Shown piece by piece: positions 5,255-62,325 of a stretch of 64,000 nt of DNA. This DNA comes from Leucoraja ocellata (lineage: Eukaryota), in NCBI GenBank assembly GCA_036785375.1, contig JAWMAR010000481.1, forward strand, positions 1,426,001-1,490,000, in the 5' to 3' direction. The translations under genes were made by a program, and so were the position numbers. The number at the start of each line of letters is the position of its first letter. Position 1 is the stretch's first letter. The notes under the pieces are model-generated. The model was not told the origin of the DNA and searched no databases. It worked only from the letters and a program-made list of their open reading frames with translations.

Positions 5255-7228
5255 AATAGACAATAGACAATGGGTGCAGGAGTAGGTCTTTTGACCCTTC
5301 GACCCAGCACCGCCATTCAATGTGATCATGGCTGATCATCCCCTACCAGTACCCTGTTCCTGCCTGTGTGTGGACGTGGCATCGAAGGACGAGAAGCTGA
5401 ACCAAAGAAGTGGAAGCCAAATAACCGAATGGAAACAAAGCCAAAACACCAAAGAACCAAAAGGGTACAAAGCCGAAATGCCAACTAACCGAAAGGGTAG
5501 GATGCCTAAAAGCAAACTCACCGAAAGGTCGCTCTGTCGAAATGCCAACTCACCGAATGGCTGCTCTGCCGAAAAGTCAAATAACGGCCGGGGGCGGGAC
5601 ATGTCAGCGATTGGTCCAGACCCACGTGTCCATCATATCACTGGCCGATGGAGACGGGAGGGTGGGGATCATGTTCCCACACAAGCCATAGGTGACTGGG
5701 CACTCTGATCCCGAGCTCCAAGTTGTACAGTCCCGTTCCGCCCCCCCCGGCAGCATCATGTCCGTTCGGTTAGTTTGCTTTTAGGCGTCCCACCCTTACG
5801 GTTAGTTGGCGTTTCAGCTTCGTTTCCGTTCGGTTATTTAGGTTACACTTCATTGCTTCGGCTTCTTGTCCTTCGACGCCATGTCTGGGTCCCGTTCCTG
5901 CCTTCTCCCCATATCCCCTGGCTCCGCTATCTTTAAGAGCCCTATCTAGCTCTCTCTTGAAAGTATCCAGAGAACCGACCTCCACTGCCCTCTAAGGCAG
6001 AGAATTCCACAGACTCACAACTCTTTGTGTGAAGAAGTGTTTCCTCGTCTCCGTTCTAAATGATTACCCCTTATTCTTAAACTGTGGCCTCTGATTTTGG
6101 ACTCCCCCCAACATCGGGAACATGTTTCCTGCCTCTAGCATGTCCAAACCCTTAATAATCTTATATGTTTCAAGAATATCCTCTCATCCTTCTTAACTCC
6201 AGAGTATACAAGCCCAGCCGCTCCATTCTCTCAGCATATGACAGTCCCGCCATCCCGGGAATTAAACTTGTAAACCTACGCTGCACTCCCTCAATAGCCA
6301 GCATGTCCTTCCTCAAATTAGGGGACAAAACTGCACACAATACTCCAGATGTGGTCTCAGTCGGGATCTGTACAACTGCAGAAGGATCTATTTGTTCCTA
6401 TACTCAAATCCTCTTGTTGTGAAGGCCAACATGCGATTCGTTTTCTTCACTGCCTGCTGTACTTGCATGCTTACTTTCATTGATTGATGAACAAGGACCC
6501 CCCGATCCCGTTGTACTTCCTCTTTTCCCAACTTGACACCATTTAGTCAATAATAATCTGCCTCCCTGCCTCCCTGCCATGCATCTGCCCACTCACCCAA
6601 CCTGTCCAAGTCACCCTGCATTCTCATAGCATCCTCCTCACAGTTCACACTGTCACCCAGCTTTGTGACTTCTGCAAATTTGCTCATGTTACTTTGAATC
6701 CCTTCATCTAAATCATTAATGTATTTTGTAAATTGCTGCAGTCCCAGCACCGAGCCTTGTGGTGCCCCACTAGTCACTGCCTGCCATTCTGAAAGGGACC
6801 CGTTAATCCCTCTTCTTTGTTTCCTATCTGCCAACCAATTTTCTATCCATGTCAGCACTCTACCCCCGATACCATGTGCCTTAATTCTGTCCTATGTGGG
6901 ACCTTATCAAATGCTTTCTGAAAGTCCAGGTACACTACATGTCTGGGTCCCGTTCCTGCCTTGGTTACATTTTGTCTGCTCTACATTTAGATGCAGATCC
7001 TCCCCACTGGCTCTCCCTTGCCCATTTGGGGATTTATCAGCCTTCAGTCCCATCAGTCCACCCAACACCATTTCCTGTCCAATGTAGATTTCCTTCAGTA
7101 CCTCCGTCACCCCAGATCCTCTGGCTGCTACTATATCAGGAAGATTGTTTGTGTCCTCCTTAGTGAAGCCAGATCCAAAGTACCTATTCAACTCATCTAC
7201 CATTTCCTTATTCCTCATAATAAATTCA
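5255..7228 (-). mobile_element. CR1-type LINE (RT to 3' end), degenerate, with nested insertions
   Basis: - strand ORFs WIENWLADRKQR...SG.PQGSVLG...YINDLDEGI...SKFA.TKLG. Confidence 0.9.
5365..5890. mobile_element. Unclassified TIR element nested in the CR1 3' end
   Basis: ~30-bp inverted ends (GACGTGGCATCGAAGGACGAGAAGCTGAA / TTCGGCTTCTTGTCCTTCGACGCCATGTC), CCGAA subterminal repeats, and flanking duplication CCYGTTCCTGCC. Confidence 0.7.
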
Positions 7229-29847: not shown

Positions 29848-29893
29848 ATGGGGGTCGCTGCTTATCTCTGTCTCCTTCTGTCCTGTCTGCCAG
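29848..29893 (+). CDS. IgW: IgW heavy chain leader exon (MGVAAYLCLLLSCLP-G)
   Basis: ATG plus a hydrophobic 15-codon signal peptide, phase-1 donor CAG|GTGGGT, and a short intron to the V exon acceptor TTTGCAG. Confidence 0.95.
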
Positions 29894-30021: not shown

Positions 30022-30329
30022 GCGTTCGATCCGCGGTCGTGCTGAATCAGAAACCGACCGAGGTGGCAAAGCCCGGAGACTGCCTCAAACTGACCTGTGT
30101 AACCAGCGGGTTCACCCTCAGCGACTACGCCGTGCATTGGGTGAAACAAGTCCCCGGGAAAGGGCTGGAGTGGGTGGCGGTGATATGGGGTGGTGGCGAC
30201 AAACTATACGCGCCCGCCTTCAGCGGCCGATTCGAGGTTTCCAAGGACAGCAGCAATGTCTATCTCCAAATGACCAACCTGAGTCTGGCCGACACGGCCA
30301 CCTATTACTGTGCGAGACAATACGGGTGG
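30022..30329 (+). CDS. IgW: IgW VH exon with a D-like 3' extension (probable germline-joined V-D1)
   Basis: GVRS AVVLNQKPTEVAKPGDCLKLTCVTSGFTLSDYAVHWVKQVPGKGLEWVAVIWGGGDKLYAPAFSGRFEVSKDSSNVYLQMTNLSLADTATYYCAR-QYGW. Canonical Cys/Trp/YYCAR motifs, open frame, and 12 nt between the YYCAR Arg codon and the heptamer. Confidence 0.96.
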
Positions 30330-30367
30330 CACAGTGTGAGAGATGGGACTTCCTCAATACAAAAACC
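30330..30367 (+). other. Recombination signal sequence, 22-bp spacer (3' of V/VD)
   Basis: Consensus heptamer CACAGTG (30330-30336), 22-nt spacer, consensus nonamer ACAAAAACC (30359-30367). Confidence 0.95.
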
Positions 30368-30694: not shown

Positions 30695-30760
30695 AGTTTG
30701 TGAGCGGCGGTGAATCACCGTGTATACTGGCCCACGGCGGTGGAGAGCTGAACAAAAACT
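30695..30760 (+). other. IgW: DH segment (TATACTGGCC, 30723-30732) flanked by 12/12 RSSs
   Basis: 5' side: AGTTTGTGA - 12 nt - CACCGTG (30716-30722). 3' side: CACGGCG (30733-30739) - 12 nt - ACAAAAACT (30752-30760). This matches the D2-type 12/12 layout of chondrichthyan IgH clusters. Confidence 0.88.
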
Positions 30761-31125: not shown

Positions 31126-31173
31126 ACTATCTTGAATACTGGGGTGCAGGAACCTCGCTGACAGTGACTTCAG
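31126..31173 (+). CDS. IgW: JH segment (YLEYWGAGTSLTVTS)
   Basis: WGxG motif, TVTS end, phase-1 donor CAG|GTAAGA. Confidence 0.95.
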
Positions 31174-32734
31174 GTAAGACCAATTCCTCAATTCCATTTT
31201 ACCCAGTTGTGTTTTATTAATGTATGGTCTTTGCCAATTCTGTAATTGACCTGAACTCGGTGTGATATTTGGAACGGATTTCCCGGACACAGGCGGGTTT
31301 CTCCAGAGTTGGAATCTACCCAGCAACAGTACATTTCCCACCACGTTGAACTGCCCCACAGGCTGTTCTTTCCCTGAGTCTCGCCATCATCTGCCTTCAG
31401 TCCATCTTGTGCATGCCGACCAAGCTGGCTTTCTGGGCTCGGCCCATTGGCCACATACCCTTCTCATCCATATACCGGATTTTTCGTAATTCTATCTGCT
31501 TTTATAGTTTTCTCTGGCAACTCATTCCAGATACTGCCTACCCAATGTGAATAAAAATGCCCCTGAAGTCCCCTTTTTAATCTCTCCCCACTCACCTTAC
31601 GCCTGTGCCCTCTTGTTTTAGAAACCTCTATCCTGGGACAAAGCCTGTGAGCGTGCACCTTATCCATGCCCCTCATGATCTTGTTCACCTCAACAACGTT
31701 ACTGCGCAGTGTCCTTTGCCTCAAAGGGGAAAAAAGCACCTTATCCTCCCTCTCCCTAAAACAGAACCTCACATGTCCAGACAATATCTTGGTGAATCTT
31801 TTCCAAGTCTCCAATATAATGACATCCTGTAGCTGTGTGACCAGAACTACACACAGTACTTACTCCAAGCGTGGTCTCACCAATGACTTATACAGCTGCA
31901 TCATCATGTCCCAACTTTTATACGCAGTACCCTTCCCATCGAAGGCAGTCTGACAAAAGCCACCTCAGCTCCCTGTCCACCTAACTCGCCACTCTCAGCG
32001 AACCATGCCTCTGTATTTCCACATCTGTCTGTTCTACAACACTCTTCAGGCGCTACCATTTACTGTGTAAGTCCAGCCCTGGTTTGATCTACCACAGTTC
32101 AACACTCCCTCACTTGTCAGAGTTAAATTCCATTTGGCATTCCTTGGCTCCCTTTCCCAACTGATCTTGATCTTATTGTAAACTTATCCCTCTCACTGTC
32201 CACTCATGCTCTGATTTTGGTGTCATCTGCAAACTTACTATCAATGTCCACTATATTGTATGGCAAACTGTTAATGTAGATAACCAACACCAGTGGTCTC
32301 TGCACTGACCCCTGCAGTAGTCCACTTCCTCCAAGCTAATTTAGTACATGTTGGGTTTCATGAGATCTAACCTTCCACGCCAGCCCACCATGCCAGACCT
32401 TATTGAACCTTATCAGGTCCATGAGGCACAATTTCCCCCAACACAAGCCATGCTGTCCCTAATCCTTGGCCCACCCTCCTAAATGATCTAGATCTTGTAC
32501 ATTTAGGACTATCCCTAATCAGTCCGTGTCTATCCAAATATGGATAGTTCCTATCCCTAAGGACATTCCCACCAATGACGTCAGGCTCACTGGTGTAGAT
32601 TCCTGGCTTGGCCCTAATGTCCTTCTTCAATTACGCGTCAGTATCAGCCACCCTCCAGTCTTTTGGAGATTAATCTGCCTGTTTCCACACTATTAATCTA
32701 TGACGCTATGACTCCAGTACCTGCTCCCGCAAAG

Positions 32735-33035
32735 CGATCCCATCAAACACATCCAGGTCAGACAGAGCATGAGTCAAATGCAGAATAAATCTCCCCATGT
32801 CACTGTGCTGTCAGTTACAGATTAGATACAAAGTTCCATCTTCCTGTCCCAACACTCCCAGGGAAGGGACAGCACAGGTTAGACAAGGAGTGAGGCTCCA
32901 TCCAACCTGTCTCCACACACACCCAGGGTACGGGTTAGTCACTGAGTGAAGTTCCCTCTACACTCTCTCCCAGTGCAGGGACAGTGTGCTTGACACAGAG
33001 TCAAGCTCCCTCTACATTGCTCTGTCAAACACTCC
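32735..33035. repeat. Degenerate ~60-65 bp satellite-like repeat in the J-CH1 intron
   Basis: Recurring ACACTCCCAGGG..GGGACAGCAC..GTTAGA..GAGT.AAGCTCCCTCTACA motif, about 4-5 copies. Confidence 0.6.
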
Positions 33036-33950
33036 TTGTGTAAATGCTTCAGAACACAGAACATTCTCTAGATTGTAAAACACATTGATGCTGGTTCAAA
33101 AACAAAGGTTCACAATAATGAATGATTTGAAAGTAATGAGAGAATGTTGTACATGGTTCTACTGTAGATGTAGGGTTTAGTACACCTGGTTTTCGTTGCG
33201 TCTTGTATTGAATTTCAACATTTAGAGATCCTTAGTAAGTCAATACCTTTTATTCTTCATTGTGAATTCACTGATGCGCATAGTTTAGATTCTGAGTCAA
33301 GTTGCTTGGTGTTTTTGACGTGGGTTTTGCTGCACAAAAGAGCTGCTTTTTCCCAGTTCACAGATGGAGGCACGGCTCTAATTTGCTGCCCTCCTCCGCC
33401 AGCCGACAGACTGGGTTTGTCCAACACGTGCTTTGTTCCATTAAACAGGGCTGCTGGTGTCTCAGTGAATCTCAGTGATTGACAGAGCACCTTTCCTGGT
33501 GTTCCCGAGCGCTTTACAGGCAGTGAAGCATGTTCACAATAGAGCCGTGTTGTAAAGGAGGGACTATGGATCCACTCTGCACACAGCAGAATCGGCATAC
33601 CGCTGGTGAGGGGAAAATGTTGTCCGAAACACCACAGTTACAGTGATCCAATGGACGGGCATCAGGCTACAATCAGACCCCAGTTTAATTCCGCAACAAC
33701 TGTGGAATTTAAACTTTGTTCATAATCTGGGAGAGATTGGACCAGTGTCAGATTTTCTTTTGTTAGTAACCTGGATTTTGTGCACAAATCCACAGTAATG
33801 ATGACCTCTCAGTTTCCCTGTTGTCCCTCAGAGGAGGAGATCTATTGTCCTTACCCAGTCGAGCCTATTTCTGACCCCTGACCCAGCAACGCAATTGGCA
33901 CTAAATGCCCCCAGGATGGCGACCCAGACGGGCAGTTTATTGCCCCTTCT

Positions 33951-34426
33951 CACCCCAGCACCCAGCTCCTCACCCCAGCACCCAGCTCCTCCCCCCAGCA
34001 CCCAGCTCCTCCCCCCAGCACCCAGCTCCTCCCCCCAGCACCCAGCTCCTCCCCCCAGCACCCAGCTCCTCCCCCCAGCACCCAGCTCCTCCCCCCAGCA
34101 CCCAGCTCCTCCCCCCAGCACCCAGCTCCTCCCCCCAGCACCCAGCTCCTCCCCCCAGCACCCAGCTCCTCCCCCCAGCACCCAGCTCCTCCCCCCAGCA
34201 CCCAGCTCCTCCCCCCAGCACCCAGCTCCTCCCCCCAGCACCCAGCTCCTCCCCCCAGCACCCAGCTCCTCCCCCCAGCACCCAGCTCCTCCCCCCAGCT
34301 CCTCCCCCCAGCACCCAGCTCCTCCCCCCAGCTCCTCCCCCCAGCACCCAGCTCCTCCCCCCAGCACCCAGCTCCTCCCCCCAGCACCCAGCTCCTCCCC
34401 CCAGCACCCAGCTCCTCCCCCCAGCT
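33951..34426. repeat. 20-bp minisatellite (CCCAGCTCCTCCCCCCAGCA)n in the J-CH1 intron
   Basis: About 23 nearly perfect units plus a few 13-bp variants. 25 AGCT and 22 AGCA motifs by hand count. Confidence 0.97.
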
Positions 34427-35364
34427 GCTAGTATGATGTGTTTTCCTGTCTCTGACCCACCTCCTGACCACATTAGGAACATTGATCCAAATTAAACTGC
34501 ACTCACCACCTGCTGATCCCGGGATGGAAAACACTGTGAGCTACAAGTCTCGCCGCCTGACATCATTGAGCCTCCTGCACGAAACACTCGACAGCTCAGG
34601 CAGCATCTGTGGGGAGAGAAGCAGAATCACCCTTTCACTTCAGTGGTCTATCATCAAACTCTTTCAGTACAGTTTCTGACAACCACTATTTCCACTTTTA
34701 TTTGATGTTTTTTTATTTTGTTGAAGGTTTCCACAACCCCAGGACATCTCAAAGCATTTCCCAGCCCATGAATAACTAAGAGACATAGAGTTATACAGCA
34801 TGGAAACAGGCCCTTCAGCTCAGCTTGTGCAAGGCAGCCTGATGTTCCATGTATGCTAGTCCCACTTGCCCATGTTTACCTCATGTCCTCTAATTCTTTC
34901 CTATCCATGTATCTGTCCAAGTGTCTTTTAAATGCTGTTATCGTACCTGCCTCAACTGTTTCCTCTGGCAGCCTGTTCCATATATCCACCACCCTGTGTA
35001 TGAGAAAGTTCCCCACACATTCCCATTAAATCTTGTTCCTCACATCTTACACCTATATCTTGATTCCCCTATCCTGTGTAATAGACTGTGCATTCACCCT
35101 ATCTATTCCCTTCATGATTTTATACACCTTTATAGGATCACTCTTCTGCCTTCTAGAGGTATAAAGGAGTAAAGTCCGAGCCTGCCCTACTTTTCCCTCC
35201 AGCTCAGGCCCTTGAGTCCTGGCAACATACTTGTGAATCTTCTCAGCACTCTTCTAGCCTAATGATATCTTTCCGAGAGTAGCTTGATGAAAACTCAACA
35301 TTGTATTCCAAATTCAGCCTCATCGATTTCTTGTAACATTCTAGTATAACATCCAACTTCTGAA

Positions 35365-35932
35365 CAGTAAACCCCCATTATAACGGACCATGGTGTGGGG
35401 GGGATAGTATTCATTATTGCCGAATGTAGCTTTAAACAAGAAAGGTATTACCCGTGTATGTAGTTGAAACAAAGAATGCAGATACTGGTTAATACACAAA
35501 AAGACACAAAGTGCTGGAGTAATTCAACTGGTCAGGGAGCATCTCTGGAGAACATCAATAGGTGAGGTGGGGAATCTTCTTCAGACTGATTCAGTCTGCT
35601 GGGTTACTCAAGCACTTTGTGTTATTTCAACTTAAAACCAGGCGCCATTGTCTCTGCTCTGCACCAGCGAGTCCTTCTTCATCCACTGCACGGTCCGGTG
35701 ACACGGCTGTGGTTGTGGCTCACAATGTAGCTTCTGACTGGCAGTGTTTTCTTCAGGCCACTGACAGGGTGCATGCTCACCATGGGGCACCCTCTCCTCT
35801 CACCAGCTGCTGCTTCCAAGGTGCAGTATGTTGGTGACTCCAAGGACCATGCGTGCAAGGGTGGTGTCGGCAGGTCCGTCCGCTACATCCAAAATCTGTT
35901 ATAAAGTGGTCCGTTAAAACGAGGGGTTACTG
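35365..35932. mobile_element. Tigger/pogo-like MITE in the J-CH1 intron
   Basis: TIR CAGTAAACCCCCATTATAACGGACC / GGTCCGTTAAAACGAGGGGTTACTG|TA. Confidence 0.65.
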
Positions 35933-36411
35933 TATATCAATTCCCTGATTCATGAATAGCTTTGTTTACCAACCTATTTACCTGTGACAACACTTCCTGG
36001 GATCTGTGTAGCTGTTCTCCAAGATCCCTTAGTTGTACAACACTCCCCGAGGCCCAGCATTGAAGGAGTTCCACAACAGGCCAGATCCAGCACCATTTGG
36101 CCCGGTGGTTGTAGATATGGTCCATCTGGCACCATACCATGTGGTTCCTGACCTGGGACACATCACCCAGAGCACAGGCCGGTTTGTCCCTCTGGTTGGC
36201 AGATGTTGCTTCGCCAGTGTGAGATCAGCATTTCACTGCTTGGTCATGCACGGTGTGAAAGGGATTGGGAAAGGAACTATTTGTCTGCTCTGCCTGGCCA
36301 TCTCTCAGCCTGAATCACCTGCATTCACTCAGCAATCAGCATGAACCTGTTGCACGCGCTGGTAATAATCCATTTACTACAGAACCAACTGTTAATTTAT
36401 TTCCATTTCAG

Positions 36412-36720
36412 AGGATGTGGTTTTGCCTTCAGTCCACATCACCTCTTCCTGCAACACGGAATCTGGACAAGAGATCAGCATCCTCTGTCTGGTCAAGGAC
36501 TACCTGCCTGAGGTCATCAGTCAGACATGGTCCACCAGCAGTGGGGTCATCAACAATGGAATAACAAAGTACCCACCAGTGTTGGGACAAAACAAGAAGT
36601 ACACAATGAGCAGCTTGCTGCGAGTCTCTGTAGCAGATTGGAACAGGAAAACCGTCTACTACTGCATGTCAGGATACAAGCCGGACAACATGGTGAAAAC
36701 GGAGATCCAGAAGCCTCAAG
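36412..36720 (+). CDS. IgW: IgW constant exon CH1
   Basis: C1-set domain EDVVLPSVHITSSCNTESGQEISILCLVKDYLPEVISQTW...YYCMSGY...IQKPQ. Acceptor TTTCAG, donor AAG|GTTAGT, 309 nt, phase 1-1. The N-terminal Cys is at the usual light-chain linkage position. Confidence 0.95.
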
Positions 36721-37905
36721 GTTAGTGTGAGATTTTGTTGTCCATTTAAAGCTGATGATAGAACTAAAGTGGAAGCCTTTGTCGAACAATGTAGGAGGAA
36801 GCGAATGACTTATTTTGCTCATTCATTCTCATCCTATCAGCCAGAGTGCTGCTGCACAAGGAAAAATACACTGGGAATTTATGTGGAAGGAGATAATGGT
36901 GAGGGGGGGGGTTTCACAGAGGAAGCATCTCGTCTTGATCTGCCTCCATTCTATCCACTGCTTCGTCAAATTCCTGCAGCTCTCTACTCCCCCAAACACC
37001 TCCCTCCAGATCAACTGCTGTGTACAGAGCCACACCTATTATGCCCATGCACAGTGTGGAGATTTAAACCTTCGTCACTCTTCCTGCACTTCCCCCTCAA
37101 CCCTGCAGCCGACCCCTCACCAAGTGAAATCCAGTCTCCTTGTGGAAATGACATGAATCTGCTTCCACTCTCACTTTTAACCACTGCCTTCCTGTTCTGA
37201 TCAAATCATTGCAAATCAAGTCATAACAAAATAAGTTTCTCGTCCATCTGACCTCCAATCCCATTAAACTTAAAGTGGTGTCAGAAGGAACTGCAGATGT
37301 TGGTTTAAAGCGAAGATAGGCAGCTGGAGTAACTCAGCGGGTCAGACAGCATCTCTGGTGACGTTTTGGGATGAGACCCTTCCTCAGACTGAGAGTTGGG
37401 AAAGGGAAAAGAGATATCGACAGTGATGTAGAGAGTTATAGAACTAATAAACGAAGATATGCAAAACAGTAATGCCGATAAAGGAAACAGGCCATTGTTA
37501 GCTGTGGGCTAGGTGAGAATGAGTTACAGACAAAGAAGAGGTGAAGCCAACTTAAAGTTGTGATTCCCAAACCTCCTGCCAGTAGAAACAGTTGTCTCAT
37601 CTGTTCCTGTGTCTGCTCCAGCACACACTGAGATCACGGATGGTCTGTACGCCACTTACCCACCTCCACCCCTACCACTGCAGAGTGGCCCACACTGCTG
37701 GGAGGCCTGTGTTCTAACCCAGCCTCCCAATCACAGCTCTGACCAGCATCTGATCGTGGGACCCACCGTATCAACACATCACCGGCATGTCACCAGCATT
37801 GTGGGGAGGGCTGGTACTGGGGCACTTGTCCCAGATGCTGGGAGAGTGGAATCCTGCAATGTGGCTGAAGGAATCAAGTAATAACAGATATTAAATATGT
37901 TACAG

Positions 37906-38205
37906 CCCCACAGCTCATCCCCCTTGTTCCATCTCCGGAGACTCTCCACAATCAAACAACTGCTGTCCTGGGCTGCATGATATCTGGATTCTCTCCTGAC
38001 AATATTAAAGTTTCCTGGAAAAAAGCTGGACTTAATCAAGCGGGCGTCGTTCTCCCATCCACTCCGAGAACTAACGGTGGATTTGAAACAGTTGCTTACC
38101 TGCCGTTGAATGTGGAGGAATGGACCAACAAACAGGAATATACTTGTGAAGTGACCCACGCACCTTCCGGCTTCAGCGACAAGATCAACATGAGATATCA
38201 AGAGG
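37906..38205 (+). CDS. IgW: IgW constant exon CH2
   Basis: APQLIPLVPSPETLHNQTTAVLGCMISGFSPDNIKVSW...EEWTNKQEYTCEVTHAPSG...MRYQE. Acceptor TTACAG, donor AGG|GTGAGT, 300 nt. Confidence 0.95.
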
Positions 38206-38567
38206 GTGAGTGGCGTCTGTTAATTTACTTACAGCATTAAACAATCTTACTGACATTTCCACCAAATTCCTGTCGCTGTGATCAGTCCTGTTGAGCGATG
38301 TATTATGTTCACATTTGGCTTTTTGCAATTTAAGCCAATGCTTTCCATCTGTAATTCTAACTCATTCTACAGGACATGTAGAGAGGAAGCTCACCAGTGT
38401 GTTTACGCTCACTCCTCTAGTTGCCTTTGTGTGCAGTGGTAAGAAAAATGGACAGTGATTAAACCACAGGTCCCATTCGATATCTGGAGAAGATCTTTCT
38501 TCCCTTCTCACTGTCTTCTTTGTGTTAGTTTCTCCAAATCCATCTTGTTTCTTGAGTGTTCTGTATG

Positions 38568-39400
38568 GACAATAGGTGCAGGTTTAGGCCTTCAAGCCAG
38601 CACTGCCATTCAATATGATCATGGCTGATCATCCCCAATCAGTACCCCGTTCTTGCCTTCTCCCCATATCCCCTGGCTCCACTATCTTTAAGAGCCCTAT
38701 CTAGCTCTCTCTTGAAAGTATCCAGAGATCCGGCCTCCACCGTCCTCTGACGCAGAGAATTCCACAAACTCACAACTCTGTGAGAAAAAGGGTTTCCTCA
38801 TCTCCGTTCTAAATTGCTTACCCCTTATTCTTAAACGGTGGCCCCTGGTTCTGGACTCCCACAACATCAGGAACATTTTTCTTGCCTCTAGCGTGTCCAA
38901 ACCCTTAATAATCTTATATGTTTCAATAAGATATCCTCTCATCCTTCTAAACTCCAGGGTATACAAGCCCAGCTGCTCCATTCTCTCAGCACATGACAGT
39001 CCCGCCAATCAGGGAATTAACCTGATGAACCTACGCTGCACTCACTCAATAGCAAGAATGTCCTTCCACGCATTAGGGGACCAAAACTGCACACAATACT
39101 CCAGGTGTGGTCTCTACTAGGGCCCTGTACAACTGCAGAAGGACTTCTTTGCTCCTATACTCAACTCCTCTTGTTATAAAGGCCAACATGCCATTCGCTT
39201 TCTTCACTCCCTGCAGTACCTGCATGCTTATTTTCATTGACTGATGAACAAGAACCCCGAGATCCCATTGTACTTCCCCATTTCCCAACTTGACCCAATT
39301 AAGATAGTAATCTGCCTTCCTATTTTTGCTACCTCACATTTATCCACATTAAACTGTATCTGCCATGCATCTGCCCACTCACCCAAACTGTCCAACTCAC
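38568..39400 (-). mobile_element. CR1-type LINE 3' fragment in the CH2-secretory exon intron
   Basis: DLGVLVHQS...KKANGMLAFITRG...LGLYTLEFRRMRG.LIETYKIIKG. Confidence 0.88.
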
Positions 39401-52305: not shown

Positions 52306-52577
52306 TTAGTGTTAATGTATTTGTATAAGTGTTGTGGAAAATGTATTGTGTTCAATTATAAGAAATTAGAGTGTGCGCATAATTTCAAGGGTCAAACTCT
52401 GTATAAATGCTGAATGGAATTACAGAGCAGCAGGTAAGTGGGACTGTGCTGCTCTCCTTATGCACACGTCAATAAAGTGAGTCTGGAAAATGAATGCAAG
52501 TCGTTAGAGTCCAGTTGATCGGTGACGACAACACCAGACCTTGTCCGGTTTGTAAGCTTCCTATTTCTCATCTGCAG

Positions 52578-52880
52578 AATTGTCTGTCTTTATCCAAAAC
52601 CCCTCTACTGAAGAGATTTGGATCAACAAGACCGCTACTGTGGTGTGCGTGGTAATGGGCGCTGATCTGGGCCAGGTCCAAGTCTACTGGCAAGTGAGCG
52701 GAAGGGAGAGAACTACAGGGGCTGTGACCCGCCAACCGAGAGGGGAAAGTACACAAGACAGAGTGAGCCGTAAACTCCGGAGCAGTGTGGAGGAGTGGAC
52801 CAGCGGGGTGGAGGTTGTGTGCTCTGCCCAACGATCTCCATCATCCTCACCAGTGTCAGCACGGACAGAAAGTGCCAAAG
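52578..52880 (+). CDS. IgW: Extra constant exon CH3' (CH3 paralog downstream of the secretory terminus)
   Basis: ELSVFIQNPSTEEIWINKTATVVCVV...W...EEWTSGVEVVCSAQ...ESAK. Same 303-nt length as CH3, intact CTGCAG acceptor and AAG|GTGGGC donor, about 62% aa identity to CH3 by hand count. Confidence 0.9.
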
Positions 52881-52926
52881 GTGGGCGAGAGATCGGCAAT
52901 GATACGGCCAACATTAGTTACCATGA

Positions 52927-53275
52927 AGGGCCTTTCCCACTTACGCAACTATTTCGGTGACGGCCGACACCCGTCGTAGGTCATTGTAGGTCGCCAAAAA
53001 GTTTCAACATTTTGAAAATTCAGTGGCAACCTGAAAGACGTTACGACTCTTTGGGCGACTGAGGAGACTACTCACGCCCATGGAGGCAATAACCTGGTGA
53101 CATGTAGCGGGGTGAAGCCAGTATGGTCGTGAGTAGTCGTACCTTGAGTCAAATAGTCATACCTTGTGCTGGTCACCGCTGAATTTTCAACATGTTTACA
53201 TTTTTCGGCGACCTGTACCGACCTATGACGGGTGGCGGCAGATGCCGAAAAAGTCACGTAAGTGGGACAAGCCCT
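52927..53275. mobile_element. Harbinger-like MITE in the CH3'-CH4' intron
   Basis: TGA|AGGGCCTTTCCCACTTACG ... CGTAAGTGGGACAAGCCCT|TGA. Confidence 0.85.
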
Positions 53276-53317
53276 TGAGGAAGAGGATCTCACATCTACT
53301 TTGCTCCTCTGTTCCAG

Positions 53318-53635
53318 TTGAAACAAAAAGACCCAAGGTCAGACTGCTGCCTCCAGCTCACCAAGAGACCAAGCGCAGCCACACAGCCATCCTCGAGTGT
53401 GTGCTCTCTGGTTTCTACCCGGACCTCATAAACGTCACTTGGGAGAAAGACGGAGCCCCAATCTCCTCCACTACCAGCGCTACACCGACTGCTCTGGAGC
53501 AAGGGGGGACTTTCAGTGCCAGCCACTTCCTGAATGTGAGTTCAGATGATTGGAAGAAAGGCTCAGTCTTCGGCTGTACAGTGTCTCATCCCCCCTCGAA
53601 CACCAGTATCAGCCGGGAAGTGAAAAGCTTTCAAG
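53318..53635 (+). CDS. IgW: Extra constant exon CH4' (CH4 paralog)
   Basis: VETKRPKVRLLPP...LECVLSGFYPDLINVTW...FGCTVSHPPS...KSFQ. 318 nt like CH4, intact splice sites, about 69% aa identity to CH4 by hand count. Confidence 0.9.
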
Positions 53636-53769
53636 GTACGGTGCTGGGATTCACTCTAATCATCACATCTTTTACCCCGTCACAAAATAGGGTCCAGACA
53701 AGTTTAGCACTGAAGGACAAGTGTTGCAGTGTGTGAGTGAGGGAGTGATAACCAAGATGCCCAGACTAG

Positions 53770-54475
53770 AGTCAAGAAGAGTCAAGAGTGTTTTACTGTC
53801 ATATGTCCCAGACGGGACAAGGAAATTCTTACTTGCTGCAACACAACAGAATATGTGAATATGTAAACATAGTACCTAACGGGGGAAGTGAAAAAAAAGT
53901 TCAATAAATAACAAATAGTGCAAATAACAAATAATATAGTATTTAGCCTGATGTCCTGAAGCTCCTATATCATGTGCCTGACGGTAACAAGGAGAACAGT
54001 CTATGTGCTGGGTGGCCGTGGTCCCTGATGATGCTGTGTGCCTTCCACAGGCACCACTAGTGGAAAATGTCCTGAATGGCCAGGAGACAGTTGCCAGTGA
54101 TGTGCTGTGCCGCCTTCTCCACTCTCTGTAGTGATTTGCGGCTGTGGGCAGAGCAGTTCCCGTACCAGACTGTGATGCAGCCCGTCAGCAGGCTCTCGAT
54201 GGTGCATCTGTAGACGTTTGTGAGGATGCTGGCGTTCATGCCAAACTTCCTCAGTATTGTCAGGAGAAAGAGCCGCTGGCGGGCTTTCTTAGTTATTGTG
54301 TCCGTGTGCAGTGTCCAGGAGAGGTCCTCACTGATGTACACACTGAGGAACTTGAAGCTGCTGACCCTTTCAATGTCAACATCACCGATATGGATGGGGA
54401 GGTGTCCACTCCCCTGCTGTCTCCTGTAGTCCATGATCAGCTCTTTAGTTTAGCAGACATTGAGAGAGAGGTTGT
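53770..54475 (-). mobile_element. Rex1/Babar-type LINE fragment at the duplication junction
   Basis: DYRR....H.PI.I....IERVSSFKFL.V.ISEDLSW..HT..ITKKARQRLF.L..LRKFG...YRCTIES.LTGCITVWYGNC. Confidence 0.85.
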
Positions 54476-54598
54476 TCCTTATGCACACGTCAATAAAGTG
54501 AGTCTGGAAAATGAATGCAAGTTGTTAGAGTCCAGTTGATCGGTGACGACAACACCAGACCTTGTCCGGTTTGTAAGCTTCCTATTTCTCATCTGCAG

Positions 54599-54901
54599 AA
54601 TTGTCTGTCTTTATCCAAAACCCCTCCACTGAAGAGATTTGGATCAACAAGACCGCTACTGTGGTGTGCGTGGTAATGGGCGCTGATCTGAGCCAGGTCC
54701 AAGTCTACTGGCAAGTGAGCGGAAGGGAGAGAACTACAGGGGCTGTGACCCACCAACCGAGAGAGGAAAGGACCCAAGACAGAGTGAGCAGTAAACTACG
54801 GAGCAGTGTGGAGGAGTGGACCAGCGGGGTGGAGGTTGTGTGCTCTGCCCAACGATCTCCATCATCCTCACCAGTGTCAGCACGGACAGAAAGTGCCAAA
54901 G
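54599..54901 (+). CDS. IgW: Extra constant exon CH3'' (tandem copy of CH3')
   Basis: 8 nt differences from CH3' in 303 nt. Open frame and intact splice sites. Confidence 0.9.
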
Positions 54902-54947
54902 GTGGGCGAGAGATCGGCAATGATACGGCCAACATTAGTTACCATGA

Positions 54948-55293
54948 AGGGCCTTTCCCACTTACGCAACTATTTCGGTGACGGCCGGCACCCGTTGTAG
55001 GTCGTTGCAGGTCGGCGAATGTTTTCAACATGTTGAAAATCCAGTGGTGACCAGAAAGACGTTACGACTCTTTGGGCGACTGAGGAGACTACTCACGCCG
55101 ATACAAGTGACACCCTGGCGATATGTCGTGGTGTGAAGCCTGCATCGTCGTGTGTAGTCGCCCAAAGAGTCGTACCTTATGCTGGTCACCGCTGCATTTT
55201 CAACATGACCTGTTTCAAATTTTCGGCGACCTGTAACGACCTATGACGGGTGCCGGCAGTCACCGATAAAGTCGCATAAGTGGGACAGGCCCT
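54948..55293. mobile_element. Harbinger-like MITE in the CH3''-CH4'' intron (same insertion site)
   Basis: Same TGA TSD and position as the 52927-53275 copy. Confidence 0.85.
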
Positions 55294-55335
55294 TGAGGAA
55301 GAGGATCTCACATCTACTTTGCTCCTCTGTTCCAG

Positions 55336-55653
55336 TTGAAACAAAAAGACCCAAGGTCAGACTGCTGCCTCCAGCTCACCAAGAGACCAAGCGAAGCCAC
55401 ACAGCCATCCTCGAGTGTGTGCTCTCTGGTTTCTACCCGGACCTCATAAACGTCACTTGGGAGAAAGACGGAGCCCCAATCTCCTCCACTACCACCGCTA
55501 CACCGACTGCTCTGGAGCAGGGGGGGACTTTCAGTGCCAGCCACTTCCTGACTGTGAGTTCAGAGGATTGGAAGAAAGGCTCAGTCTTCGGCTGTACAGT
55601 GTCTCATCCCCCCTCGAACACCAGTATCAGCCGGGAAGTGAAAAGCTTTCAAG
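55336..55653 (+). CDS. IgW: Extra constant exon CH4'' (tandem copy of CH4')
   Basis: 5 nt differences from CH4' in 318 nt. Open frame and intact splice sites. Confidence 0.9.
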
Positions 55654-61641: not shown

Positions 61642-62325
61642 CCAGCCGACACACACGCCACCTTCACTCAAGAGATCGCCATGCAGCTGTTGACGTTGAC
61701 AAATGGAGTCTCCCTGTCTTTCACTCACTCACTCGGCAATCCGAGGCTACTGCTCTCCAAACGCTCATTACAGGAGATAAACTTGGAAATGCACTGGGGA
61801 TGCTGGGGAAGAAACCGGTTGGGATTGAGGGGGGTGGGGCGAGTGGGCGGGGGGTGGGGGGTGGCGGGTGGTGGGGGGGTGTGGGTAGGGGTGGGGGTGG
61901 GGTGAGTGGGCGGGGGGTGGGGGGTGGGGGGTTGGGGGGGTGGGGTGGGAAGGACAGGATAGGACATGACAGTGGGAAAATGTCAGGGTATAAGACACTG
62001 GAGTGGGTGACATTCAGGAGTGGGAGAGGAAGGCAGGATTAATGTTTAGGAAAGGGGAGCAGATGGGAATGTGATGAGTGAAGGAGAAGAGGGGAGTGTG
62101 GGAGGGGGAGGGATGCGCTGATGCCCTAGGAGCAAGAAGGGGGGCATGGGGAGGGGAGAAGGAACATGAAGCAATGTGGTGGAGGGGAGGGGGGGGGGGG
62201 GGGGCGATGCTTGGGGACTTGCTCAATCAGGTTTTGTAAAGCTGATGTTGTTTAACTCATTGACTGCAGCTTATTTTTTAATTTTTCTGCTGAACTGTAT
62301 GTTTTCATTTGAAATTAGATGCATA

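What the first reader, a model, noticed from the sequence alone, without database searches (positions are those of the whole stretch)
33951..34426. Switch-region-like AGCT/AGCA minisatellite in the J-CH1 intron
Seen: about 475 bp of a 20-bp unit carrying two WGCW motifs (25 AGCT + 22 AGCA), 2.8 kb 3' of JH and 2.0 kb 5' of CH1. The - strand reads TGCTGGGGGGAGGAGCTGGG, i.e. GAGCT plus G-runs. Established: WGCW is the overlapping AID hotspot, mammalian S-mu is built of GAGCT/GGGGT repeats at this same intronic position, and sharks show inter-cluster isotype switching though considered to lack classical S regions. Inference: this could be an AID-targeted, G4-capable recombination hotspot, i.e. 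a proto- or convergent switch region. Caveats: the G-rich strand is the template strand (opposite to mammals), the tract is short, and its homogeneity suggests a recent expansion.
Basis: partly seen in the sequence, partly recalled or inferred. Interest (0 to 1): 0.78.

Follow-up and report, generated by a model that had tools for sequence, protein, structure and literature searches.

The report
Skate IgW intron minisatellite, switch-like
A short tandem repeat packed with antibody-mutator target motifs sits where mammals keep their class-switch region in most copies of one skate antibody gene, but it faces the wrong way and has no partner in the other antibody class, so it is most likely an ordinary expanding repeat rather than a switch region.

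Summary
The array is real: 477 bp, 24.5 copies of a 20-bp unit, 25 AGCT plus 22 AGCA, in the J-C1 intron of a skate IgW cluster. The exact unit occurs in 8 of 10 IgW clusters found and nowhere else in the genome (142 of 142 hits), with 12 to 53 copies. Those 8 introns are about 98-100% identical, so they count as one origin. The other 2 IgW clusters lack the 1-kb block that holds it, and 0 of 39 IgM introns examined have anything similar, so no switch partner was found. The sense strand has 10% G and no GG, the orientation that fails in mammalian tests. AGCT-rich, G-rich arrays of similar size occur far from Ig genes (4 checked), although this one is denser in hotspots than anything in 400 kb of background. 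Verdict: a GC-rich, strand-skewed minisatellite carried along by IgW duplications. It is not a switch region by membership; a role as an AID break site for IgW-to-IgW exchange is not excluded (about 12%). The scan noted similar arrays in two other shark genomes, both judged ordinary there (unchecked). No B-cell data or second species could be examined.

The parts
33949..34425 (.). 20-bp minisatellite, 24.5 copies, C-rich on the sense strand; each unit has one AGCA and one AGCT; two units are a 13-bp deletion variant
33674..34673 (.). 1-kb block holding the array, absent from the two C128 IgW clusters; bounded by an imperfect 6-bp direct repeat (33668-33673 and 34668-34673)
   Evidence: flanks match only the 8 array-bearing clusters, apart from a 40-75 bp piece of a dispersed repeat
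31174..36411 (+). IgW J-C1 intron, 5238 bp
   Evidence: splice sites read
29848..29893 (+). IgW leader exon (end approximate)
30022..30329 (+). IgW V exon already joined to D1 in this assembly, followed by a perfect 22-bp-spacer RSS at 30330
30723..30732 (+). D2 segment between two 12-bp-spacer RSS
31126..31173 (+). J segment with 23-bp-spacer RSS
36412..36720 (+). IgW C1 exon (end approximate)
37906..38206 (+). IgW C2 exon (ends approximate); missing from 5 other array-bearing clusters tested

Best explanation
The array is a GC-rich, strand-skewed minisatellite (VNTR) in the J-C1 intron of one group of near-identical skate IgW clusters, which likely arose once by slippage and likely has no switch function. 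Shown: one unit, one position, 8 near-identical hosts, copy number 12-53, interspersed variant units. Inferred: it grew from a short local repeat (two CCCAGC hexamers per unit), was multiplied when the cluster was duplicated, and keeps changing length by slippage or unequal exchange, perhaps helped by G4 on the minus strand. Its AGCT/AGCA richness would then be a by-product of a unit that holds CAGC twice.
For: All 142 genome-wide hits to the 18-bp core fall in 8 IgW introns that are 97.7-100% identical, so there is one origin. Copy number runs 11.9-53.5; a 22-bp and a 47-bp VNTR upstream of V in the same clusters also vary (CV 0.50 and 0.31 against 0.57). Two IgW clusters with stop-free V matches, full RSS sets, C1, C2 and tail lack the whole block. 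0 of 39 IgM J-C1 introns have such an array; their best 400 bp hold 10-16 hotspots against 40 here. The sense strand has 9.9% G and no GG; in mouse cells switching already falls when G density drops from 46% to 29% (PMC4245955), and inverted or R-loop-poor cassettes switch poorly (PMC5485518). Three tandem GAGCTGGG motifs match 2502 times genome-wide; the first 100 listed form 24 loci in about 113 Mb by my count. Four of 5 such loci fetched are 449-820 bp arrays with 18-35 AGCT and no Ig domain within about 5 kb. Site incompatibility among paralogues is no higher across the array (0.55) than at other cuts (0.48-0.62).
Against: Hotspot density is higher than in any of 40 background stretches (best 16 per 200 bp and 25 per 400 bp, against 20 and 40) and about twice that of the four non-Ig arrays (4.0-5.1 per 100 bp). 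Long arrays of the narrow GAGCTGGG class are rare (at least 4 per 113 Mb), so a hit in a given 5-kb intron is an uncommon coincidence, roughly 0.02% to under 4% by the two estimates. None of the 8 clusters has lost the array. The recombination test is saturated (0.42 even under 100 bp), so it has little power. An inverted core switch region is still mutated by AID (PMC5485518). No second species and no B-cell DNA were examined.
Confidence: 0.75

Rival explanations
1. The array is a convergent proto-switch region: in activated B cells AID would cut at its paired hotspots, aided by antisense transcription or G4, and breaks in two IgW clusters would be joined so that a VDJ moves to another IgW constant region.
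For: Same intronic position as S-mu; 9.6 hotspots per 100 bp; mean G4Hunter-type score 1.85 on the minus strand; unit confined to IgW J-C1 introns. Reviews report inter-cluster switching in nurse shark together with hypermutation (PMC4279169, PMC4588147 passages). AID mutates an inverted core switch cassette as well as the normal one (PMC5485518). Array-bearing clusters differ in constant region (C2 present or deleted), so exchange would change the product.
Against: No partner in 39 IgM introns or in 2 other IgW clusters. Wrong strand for sense R-loops. 4.1 kb from the leader ATG, beyond the usual hypermutation window of about 2 kb in mammals (recalled, not from a call). One origin only. The reviews say nurse shark switching occurs without switch regions. 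The whole intron is about 98% identical among hosts, so homologous exchange needs no array. No excess incompatibility across it (low power).
Confidence: 0.12
2. The array began neutral but now has a side effect on IgW expression, such as polymerase pausing, G4 or i-motif formation, enhancer-like activity or stray AID damage, without serving recombination.
For: Strong G/C skew and 11 non-overlapping G4-pattern matches on the minus strand. Long G4-capable regions in human overlap enhancers and are mutation-prone (PMC7293029, abstract). J-C introns hold enhancers in other vertebrates (recalled).
Against: Two apparently intact IgW clusters lack the block. Length varies 4.5-fold among hosts (230-1033 bp). 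No expression data were available.
Confidence: 0.1
3. The array or its eight copies are mostly an assembly artefact (duplicated haplotypes, collapsed or inflated repeat).
For: The window and C3005 introns are 99.6% identical and the two C1015 introns 100% identical, so some entries may be haplotypes or assembly duplicates. Reads could not be examined.
Against: The arrays differ in length and variant-unit order, and their flanks differ by about 2%. Two contigs (C481, C1442) each carry two different arrays far apart.
Confidence: 0.03

Closest known systems
GC-rich single-locus minisatellites (VNTRs), including long G4-capable regions (LG4; PMC7293029, abstract read)
   Same: 20-bp unit, 75% GC, strong strand asymmetry, variable copy number, interspersed variant units, G4 potential.
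   Different: Multiplied with its host gene cluster; unusually dense in overlapping AID hotspots; variation was seen among paralogues or haplotypes of one assembly, not among individuals.
Mammalian switch regions (S-mu, S-gamma, S-alpha; PMC4245955 and PMC5485518 passages)
   Same: Position between J and the first C exon; tandem AGCT motifs next to G runs.
   Different: G-rich strand is the template strand; 0.2-1.0 kb rather than about 1.5 to 12 kb; no second region found before another isotype; no I promoter or germline transcript shown; cluster rather than translocon organisation.
Pseudo-switch sigma-delta upstream of C-delta (PMC8861003 passages)
   Same: Short, non-canonical AGCT-bearing region before an IgD-lineage constant gene (IgW is the IgD orthologue per PMC4279169).
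   Different: Sigma-delta recombines with S-mu and has documented junctions; here no IgM partner and no junction is known, and no homology is implied.
Nurse shark inter-cluster isotype switching (Zhu 2012, Zhang 2013; seen only through reviews PMC4279169, PMC4588147, PMC8201067)
   Same: VDJ exchange between IgH clusters would need breaks in V-J or the J-C intron.
   Different: Reported to occur without switch regions or cryptic promoters and between IgM and IgW; the array is missing from IgM here, so it cannot be the general substrate.

Membership tests
Ig switch region | Lies in the intron upstream of a C gene | tested here: met
   2775 bp after J, 1986 bp before C1
Ig switch region | Tandem repeats dense in overlapping AID hotspots | tested here: met
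   9.6 per 100 bp against 1.9 background
Ig switch region | G-rich or at least GG-bearing non-template strand, allowing R-loops on sense transcription | tested here: not met
   9.9% G and no GG on the sense strand; requirement from PMC4245955 and PMC5485518
Ig switch region | A second switch region before another isotype's C genes | tested here: not met
   0 of 39 IgM J-C1 introns, 0 of 2 divergent IgW introns; no other hotspot-rich array in the window's C region. Not every IgM cluster was fetched, and an IgNAR J-C intron was not located.
Ig switch region | Length of kilobases | tested here: inconclusive
   230-1033 bp, shorter than natural regions of about 1.5-12 kb, but synthetic nine-repeat cassettes of 80-bp units switch in mouse cells (PMC4245955)
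Ig switch region | Upstream I promoter and germline transcript | not testable with these tools
   No RNA reads could be examined
Ig switch region | AID-dependent breaks and junctions in B cells | not testable with these tools
   Only one assembly was available
Ig switch region | Kept across related species | not tested
   No relative genome is held for G000 and no sequencing runs were obtained
GC-rich minisatellite (VNTR) | Head-to-tail unit of roughly 10-60 bp | tested here: met
   Period 20, 93% matches
GC-rich minisatellite (VNTR) | GC-rich with strand asymmetry | tested here: met
   75% GC, 310 C against 47 G
GC-rich minisatellite (VNTR) | Variable copy number and interspersed variant units | tested here: met
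   11.9-53.5 copies among 8 homologous sites; 123 plain units, 15 short 13-bp units and about 19 rarer kinds
GC-rich minisatellite (VNTR) | Length polymorphism among individuals | not tested
   One assembly only

The most novel reading that the evidence does not exclude
Skates have independently evolved an IgW-specific proto-switch region: an inverted, hotspot-dense array shared by eight IgW clusters focuses AID breaks and lets a rearranged VDJ move between IgW constant regions with and without C2, giving a mappable site for the unexplained inter-cluster switching of cartilaginous fish.
Probability: 0.12. Interest if true: 0.8.

Novelty: new member of a known kind. Interest (0 to 1): 0.24.

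Why it matters
If ordinary, it warns that AGCT plus G-run repeats are a common minisatellite type in this genome and can land in a J-C intron without being a switch region. It still offers a natural experiment: eight clusters with arrays of different length and two without, in one animal. If B-cell breaks did focus on it, it would be the first switch-like element in a cartilaginous fish and would show how such regions can start from a neutral repeat.

Tried and rejected
Dispersed satellite or transposon family: rejected, because the unit and its 5' flank match only the 8 IgW introns. Insertion or deletion of the 1-kb block: unresolved; the lack of a donor elsewhere favours deletion in the C128 pair, but there is no outgroup. 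Germline recombination hotspot: four-gamete test flat but saturated; it used 7 of the 8 clusters (one of the two identical C1015 copies was left out) and dropped sites shared only by the window and C3005. AID-like signature in variant units: some G changes occur in AGCA, but they are few, clustered and probably shared by descent; no conclusion. IgNAR J-C intron: four C-type domains at C128:4.549-4.553 Mb, but no V or J found in the 29 kb upstream. Hairpin folding of the G-rich strand is weak (-8.8 kcal/mol over 120 nt, centroid nearly open) and does not model G4. The bacterial promoter scan is irrelevant here. The primary shark switching papers PMC3360817, PMC3839419 and PMC3190574 were not held, so where shark junctions map is not known to me from a call. 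No genome-wide count of all hotspot-dense arrays was obtained; the background rests on one motif class and a 400-kb sample.

Full report
Observation. TRF gives 33949-34425, period 20, 24.5 copies, 93% matches. It has 25 AGCT and 22 AGCA, 75% GC, 310 C against 47 G on the plus strand, no CpG, 9.6 overlapping AID hotspots per 100 bp and 11 G4-pattern matches on the minus strand. The best equal-sized stretch elsewhere in the window has 7 AGCT.

Locus. Leader, V, D, J and C exons lie on the plus strand. C1 is 97% identical to little skate AAA49546.1 and 57% to a spiny dogfish protein named IgW, so this is a skate IgW (IgX) cluster. The J-C1 intron runs 31174-36411. The array is 2775 bp after J, 1986 bp before C1 and 4101 bp after the leader ATG. 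V is already joined to D1 in this assembly.

Distribution. A search with C1 found 10 close matches (86-100%), mirrored by 10 close V matches and 10 last-domain matches. Eight of these 10 carry the array at the same place with 11.9 to 53.5 copies, 230-1033 bp. An 18-bp core matches 142 times in the 3.44-Gb assembly and all 142 lie in these eight introns. But the eight introns are 97.7-100% identical, so they are copies of one event, and some may be haplotypes or assembly duplicates (window and C3005 99.6%; the two on C1015 100%). Five of the 7 array-bearing clusters tested share a 2.1-kb deletion of C2, which also points to one recent amplification; one has a stop in C1.

Clusters without it. 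The two IgW clusters on C128 align to the window intron at 85-92% in blocks. They lack a 1-kb block, window 33674-34673, bounded by an imperfect 6-bp direct repeat. They have stop-free V matches, complete RSS sets, C1, C2 and tail; their expression is not shown. The block's flanks have no donor elsewhere except a 40-75 bp piece of a dispersed repeat, so deletion in the C128 pair is a little more likely than insertion, but this is unresolved. I fetched the 40 IgM-type V hits; one search lists further IgM-like loci that I did not fetch. In 39 of 40 both J and C1 were located. None has a tandem array scoring 100 or more in the intron, their hotspot density is 1.4-1.7 per 100 bp, their best 400 bp hold 10-16 hotspots and their strand skew is near zero. 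The 40th, without a located J, shows only a CT run. An IgNAR J-C intron was not located.

Background. In 40 arbitrary 10-kb stretches the best windows held 16 hotspots per 200 bp and 25 per 400 bp, against 20 and 40 for the array, so it is denser than anything sampled. Switch-like arrays are nevertheless a recurring minisatellite type here. Three GAGCTGGG motifs 5-30 bp apart match 2502 times, against 501 for the reversed control; the eight IgW arrays hold about 180 units, under a tenth of that. The first 100 listed places form 24 loci in about 113 Mb of contigs C1-C5 by my count. Of 5 fetched, chosen as promising, 4 are arrays of 449-820 bp with 18-35 AGCT, the longest built on GAGCTGGGGT, and none has an Ig domain within about 5 kb. 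Their hotspot density is 4.0-5.1 per 100 bp, half that of the IgW array. The chance that a given 5-kb intron holds such an array lies between about 0.02% (narrow class, at least 4 per 113 Mb) and under 4% (none in 400 kb). It is an uncommon coincidence, but the motif was chosen after the fact, the scan covers many genomes, and the locus is rich in VNTRs: a 22-bp and a 47-bp array upstream of V vary among the same clusters.

Mechanism. Shown: one unit, one site, variable length, variant units interspersed, with a 13-bp unit that has lost one hexamer seen 15 times. Inferred: origin by slippage of a short local repeat, spread by cluster duplication, continued turnover. For a switch role the orientation is the main obstacle. 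Sense RNA would be 65% C with no GG. In mouse cells switching and R-loops fall when non-template G drops from 46% to 29% (PMC4245955, abstract and passages). A review reports that inverted S-gamma1 and an inverted G-rich cassette switch poorly, that hotspots without R-loops are inefficient, and that even Xenopus regions rely on GG; it also reports that an inverted core region placed at the V position is mutated normally (PMC5485518, passages and section 4), which keeps the AID-target reading alive. Paralogue exchange is pervasive along the cluster, but incompatibility across the array (0.55, 283 pairs) is within the range of other cuts (0.48-0.62); the test is saturated and weak. An assembly cannot show somatic AID action.

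Known systems. [quoted passage not shown] The primary papers were not held. Mammalian sigma-delta is a short pseudo-switch region before C-delta that recombines with S-mu (PMC8861003, passages). Human long G4-capable regions number 301 and are unstable (PMC7293029, abstract). The array meets the position and hotspot features of a switch region, fails the strand and partner features, and meets the tested features of a GC-rich VNTR. I found no paper describing it in eight searches of the held library (listings only), which lacks most older subscription papers on skate IgX.

Earlier notes of this scan describe a G-rich AGCT array in the first intron of a non-rearranging shark antibody-like gene and a decayed G-rich array in a shark JH-Cmu intron, both judged ordinary. 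I did not check them. They cut both ways: such arrays turn up by chance, or they recur in these introns. A cross-species count would decide.

Verdict. Real, IgW-specific in sequence, and most likely an ordinary minisatellite (0.75). Proto-switch role 0.12, other side effect 0.10, artefact 0.03. Interest 0.24.

Noticed in passing
window 36772-38892; G000 C1015, C1442 (two), C2945, C481:1.22 Mb: Five of 7 array-bearing IgW clusters tested lack a 2.1-kb stretch containing the C2 exon but keep C1 and the cysteine-rich secretory tail; the second C1015 copy has the same exon spacing. These would encode a one-constant-domain short form if expressed.
   Followed up: partly
window 30300-30367: V is joined to D1 in this assembly with D2 and J still open. 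Other clusters show other states: unjoined (C1015 pair, C1442:35 kb, C128 pair), V-D1 joined (C3005, C1442:195 kb), and fewer RSS consistent with further joins (C2945, C481:1.22 Mb). Germline joining is known in cartilaginous fish (PMC5192425 passage).
   Followed up: partly
window 52577-55652: Two further tandem pairs of C3/C4-like exons (about 62-70% identical to the upstream pair) lie 3' of the last secretory exon.
   Followed up: no
G000:C5:16545167-16545986 (L124) and C5:13444127-13444236 (L125): Non-Ig arrays closer to mammalian switch pentamers than the IgW array: 820 bp with 35 AGCT, and 110 bp of a 15-bp unit.
   Followed up: partly
G000:C128:4549149-4553358 (L122-L123): Four Ig C-type domains, the last 63% identical to the IgW terminal domain, with no V or J found in 29 kb upstream; possibly an IgNAR-type gene or a remnant.
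   Followed up: partly
L032:about 5830-6570 (C128 IgW J-C1 intron): About 700 bp present only in the C128 IgW introns, with the look of a LINE 3' end (recalled resemblance).
   Followed up: no
window 61829-61949: Short G-rich GGGGT-type tract on the sense strand downstream of the C exons, without AGCT in its consensus units.
   Followed up: no
L075 (G000:C1868:71000-80999) and other IgM loci: One IgM cluster has V and J adjacent (fully joined) and many others have shortened V-J distances, consistent with partial germline joining.
   Followed up: no
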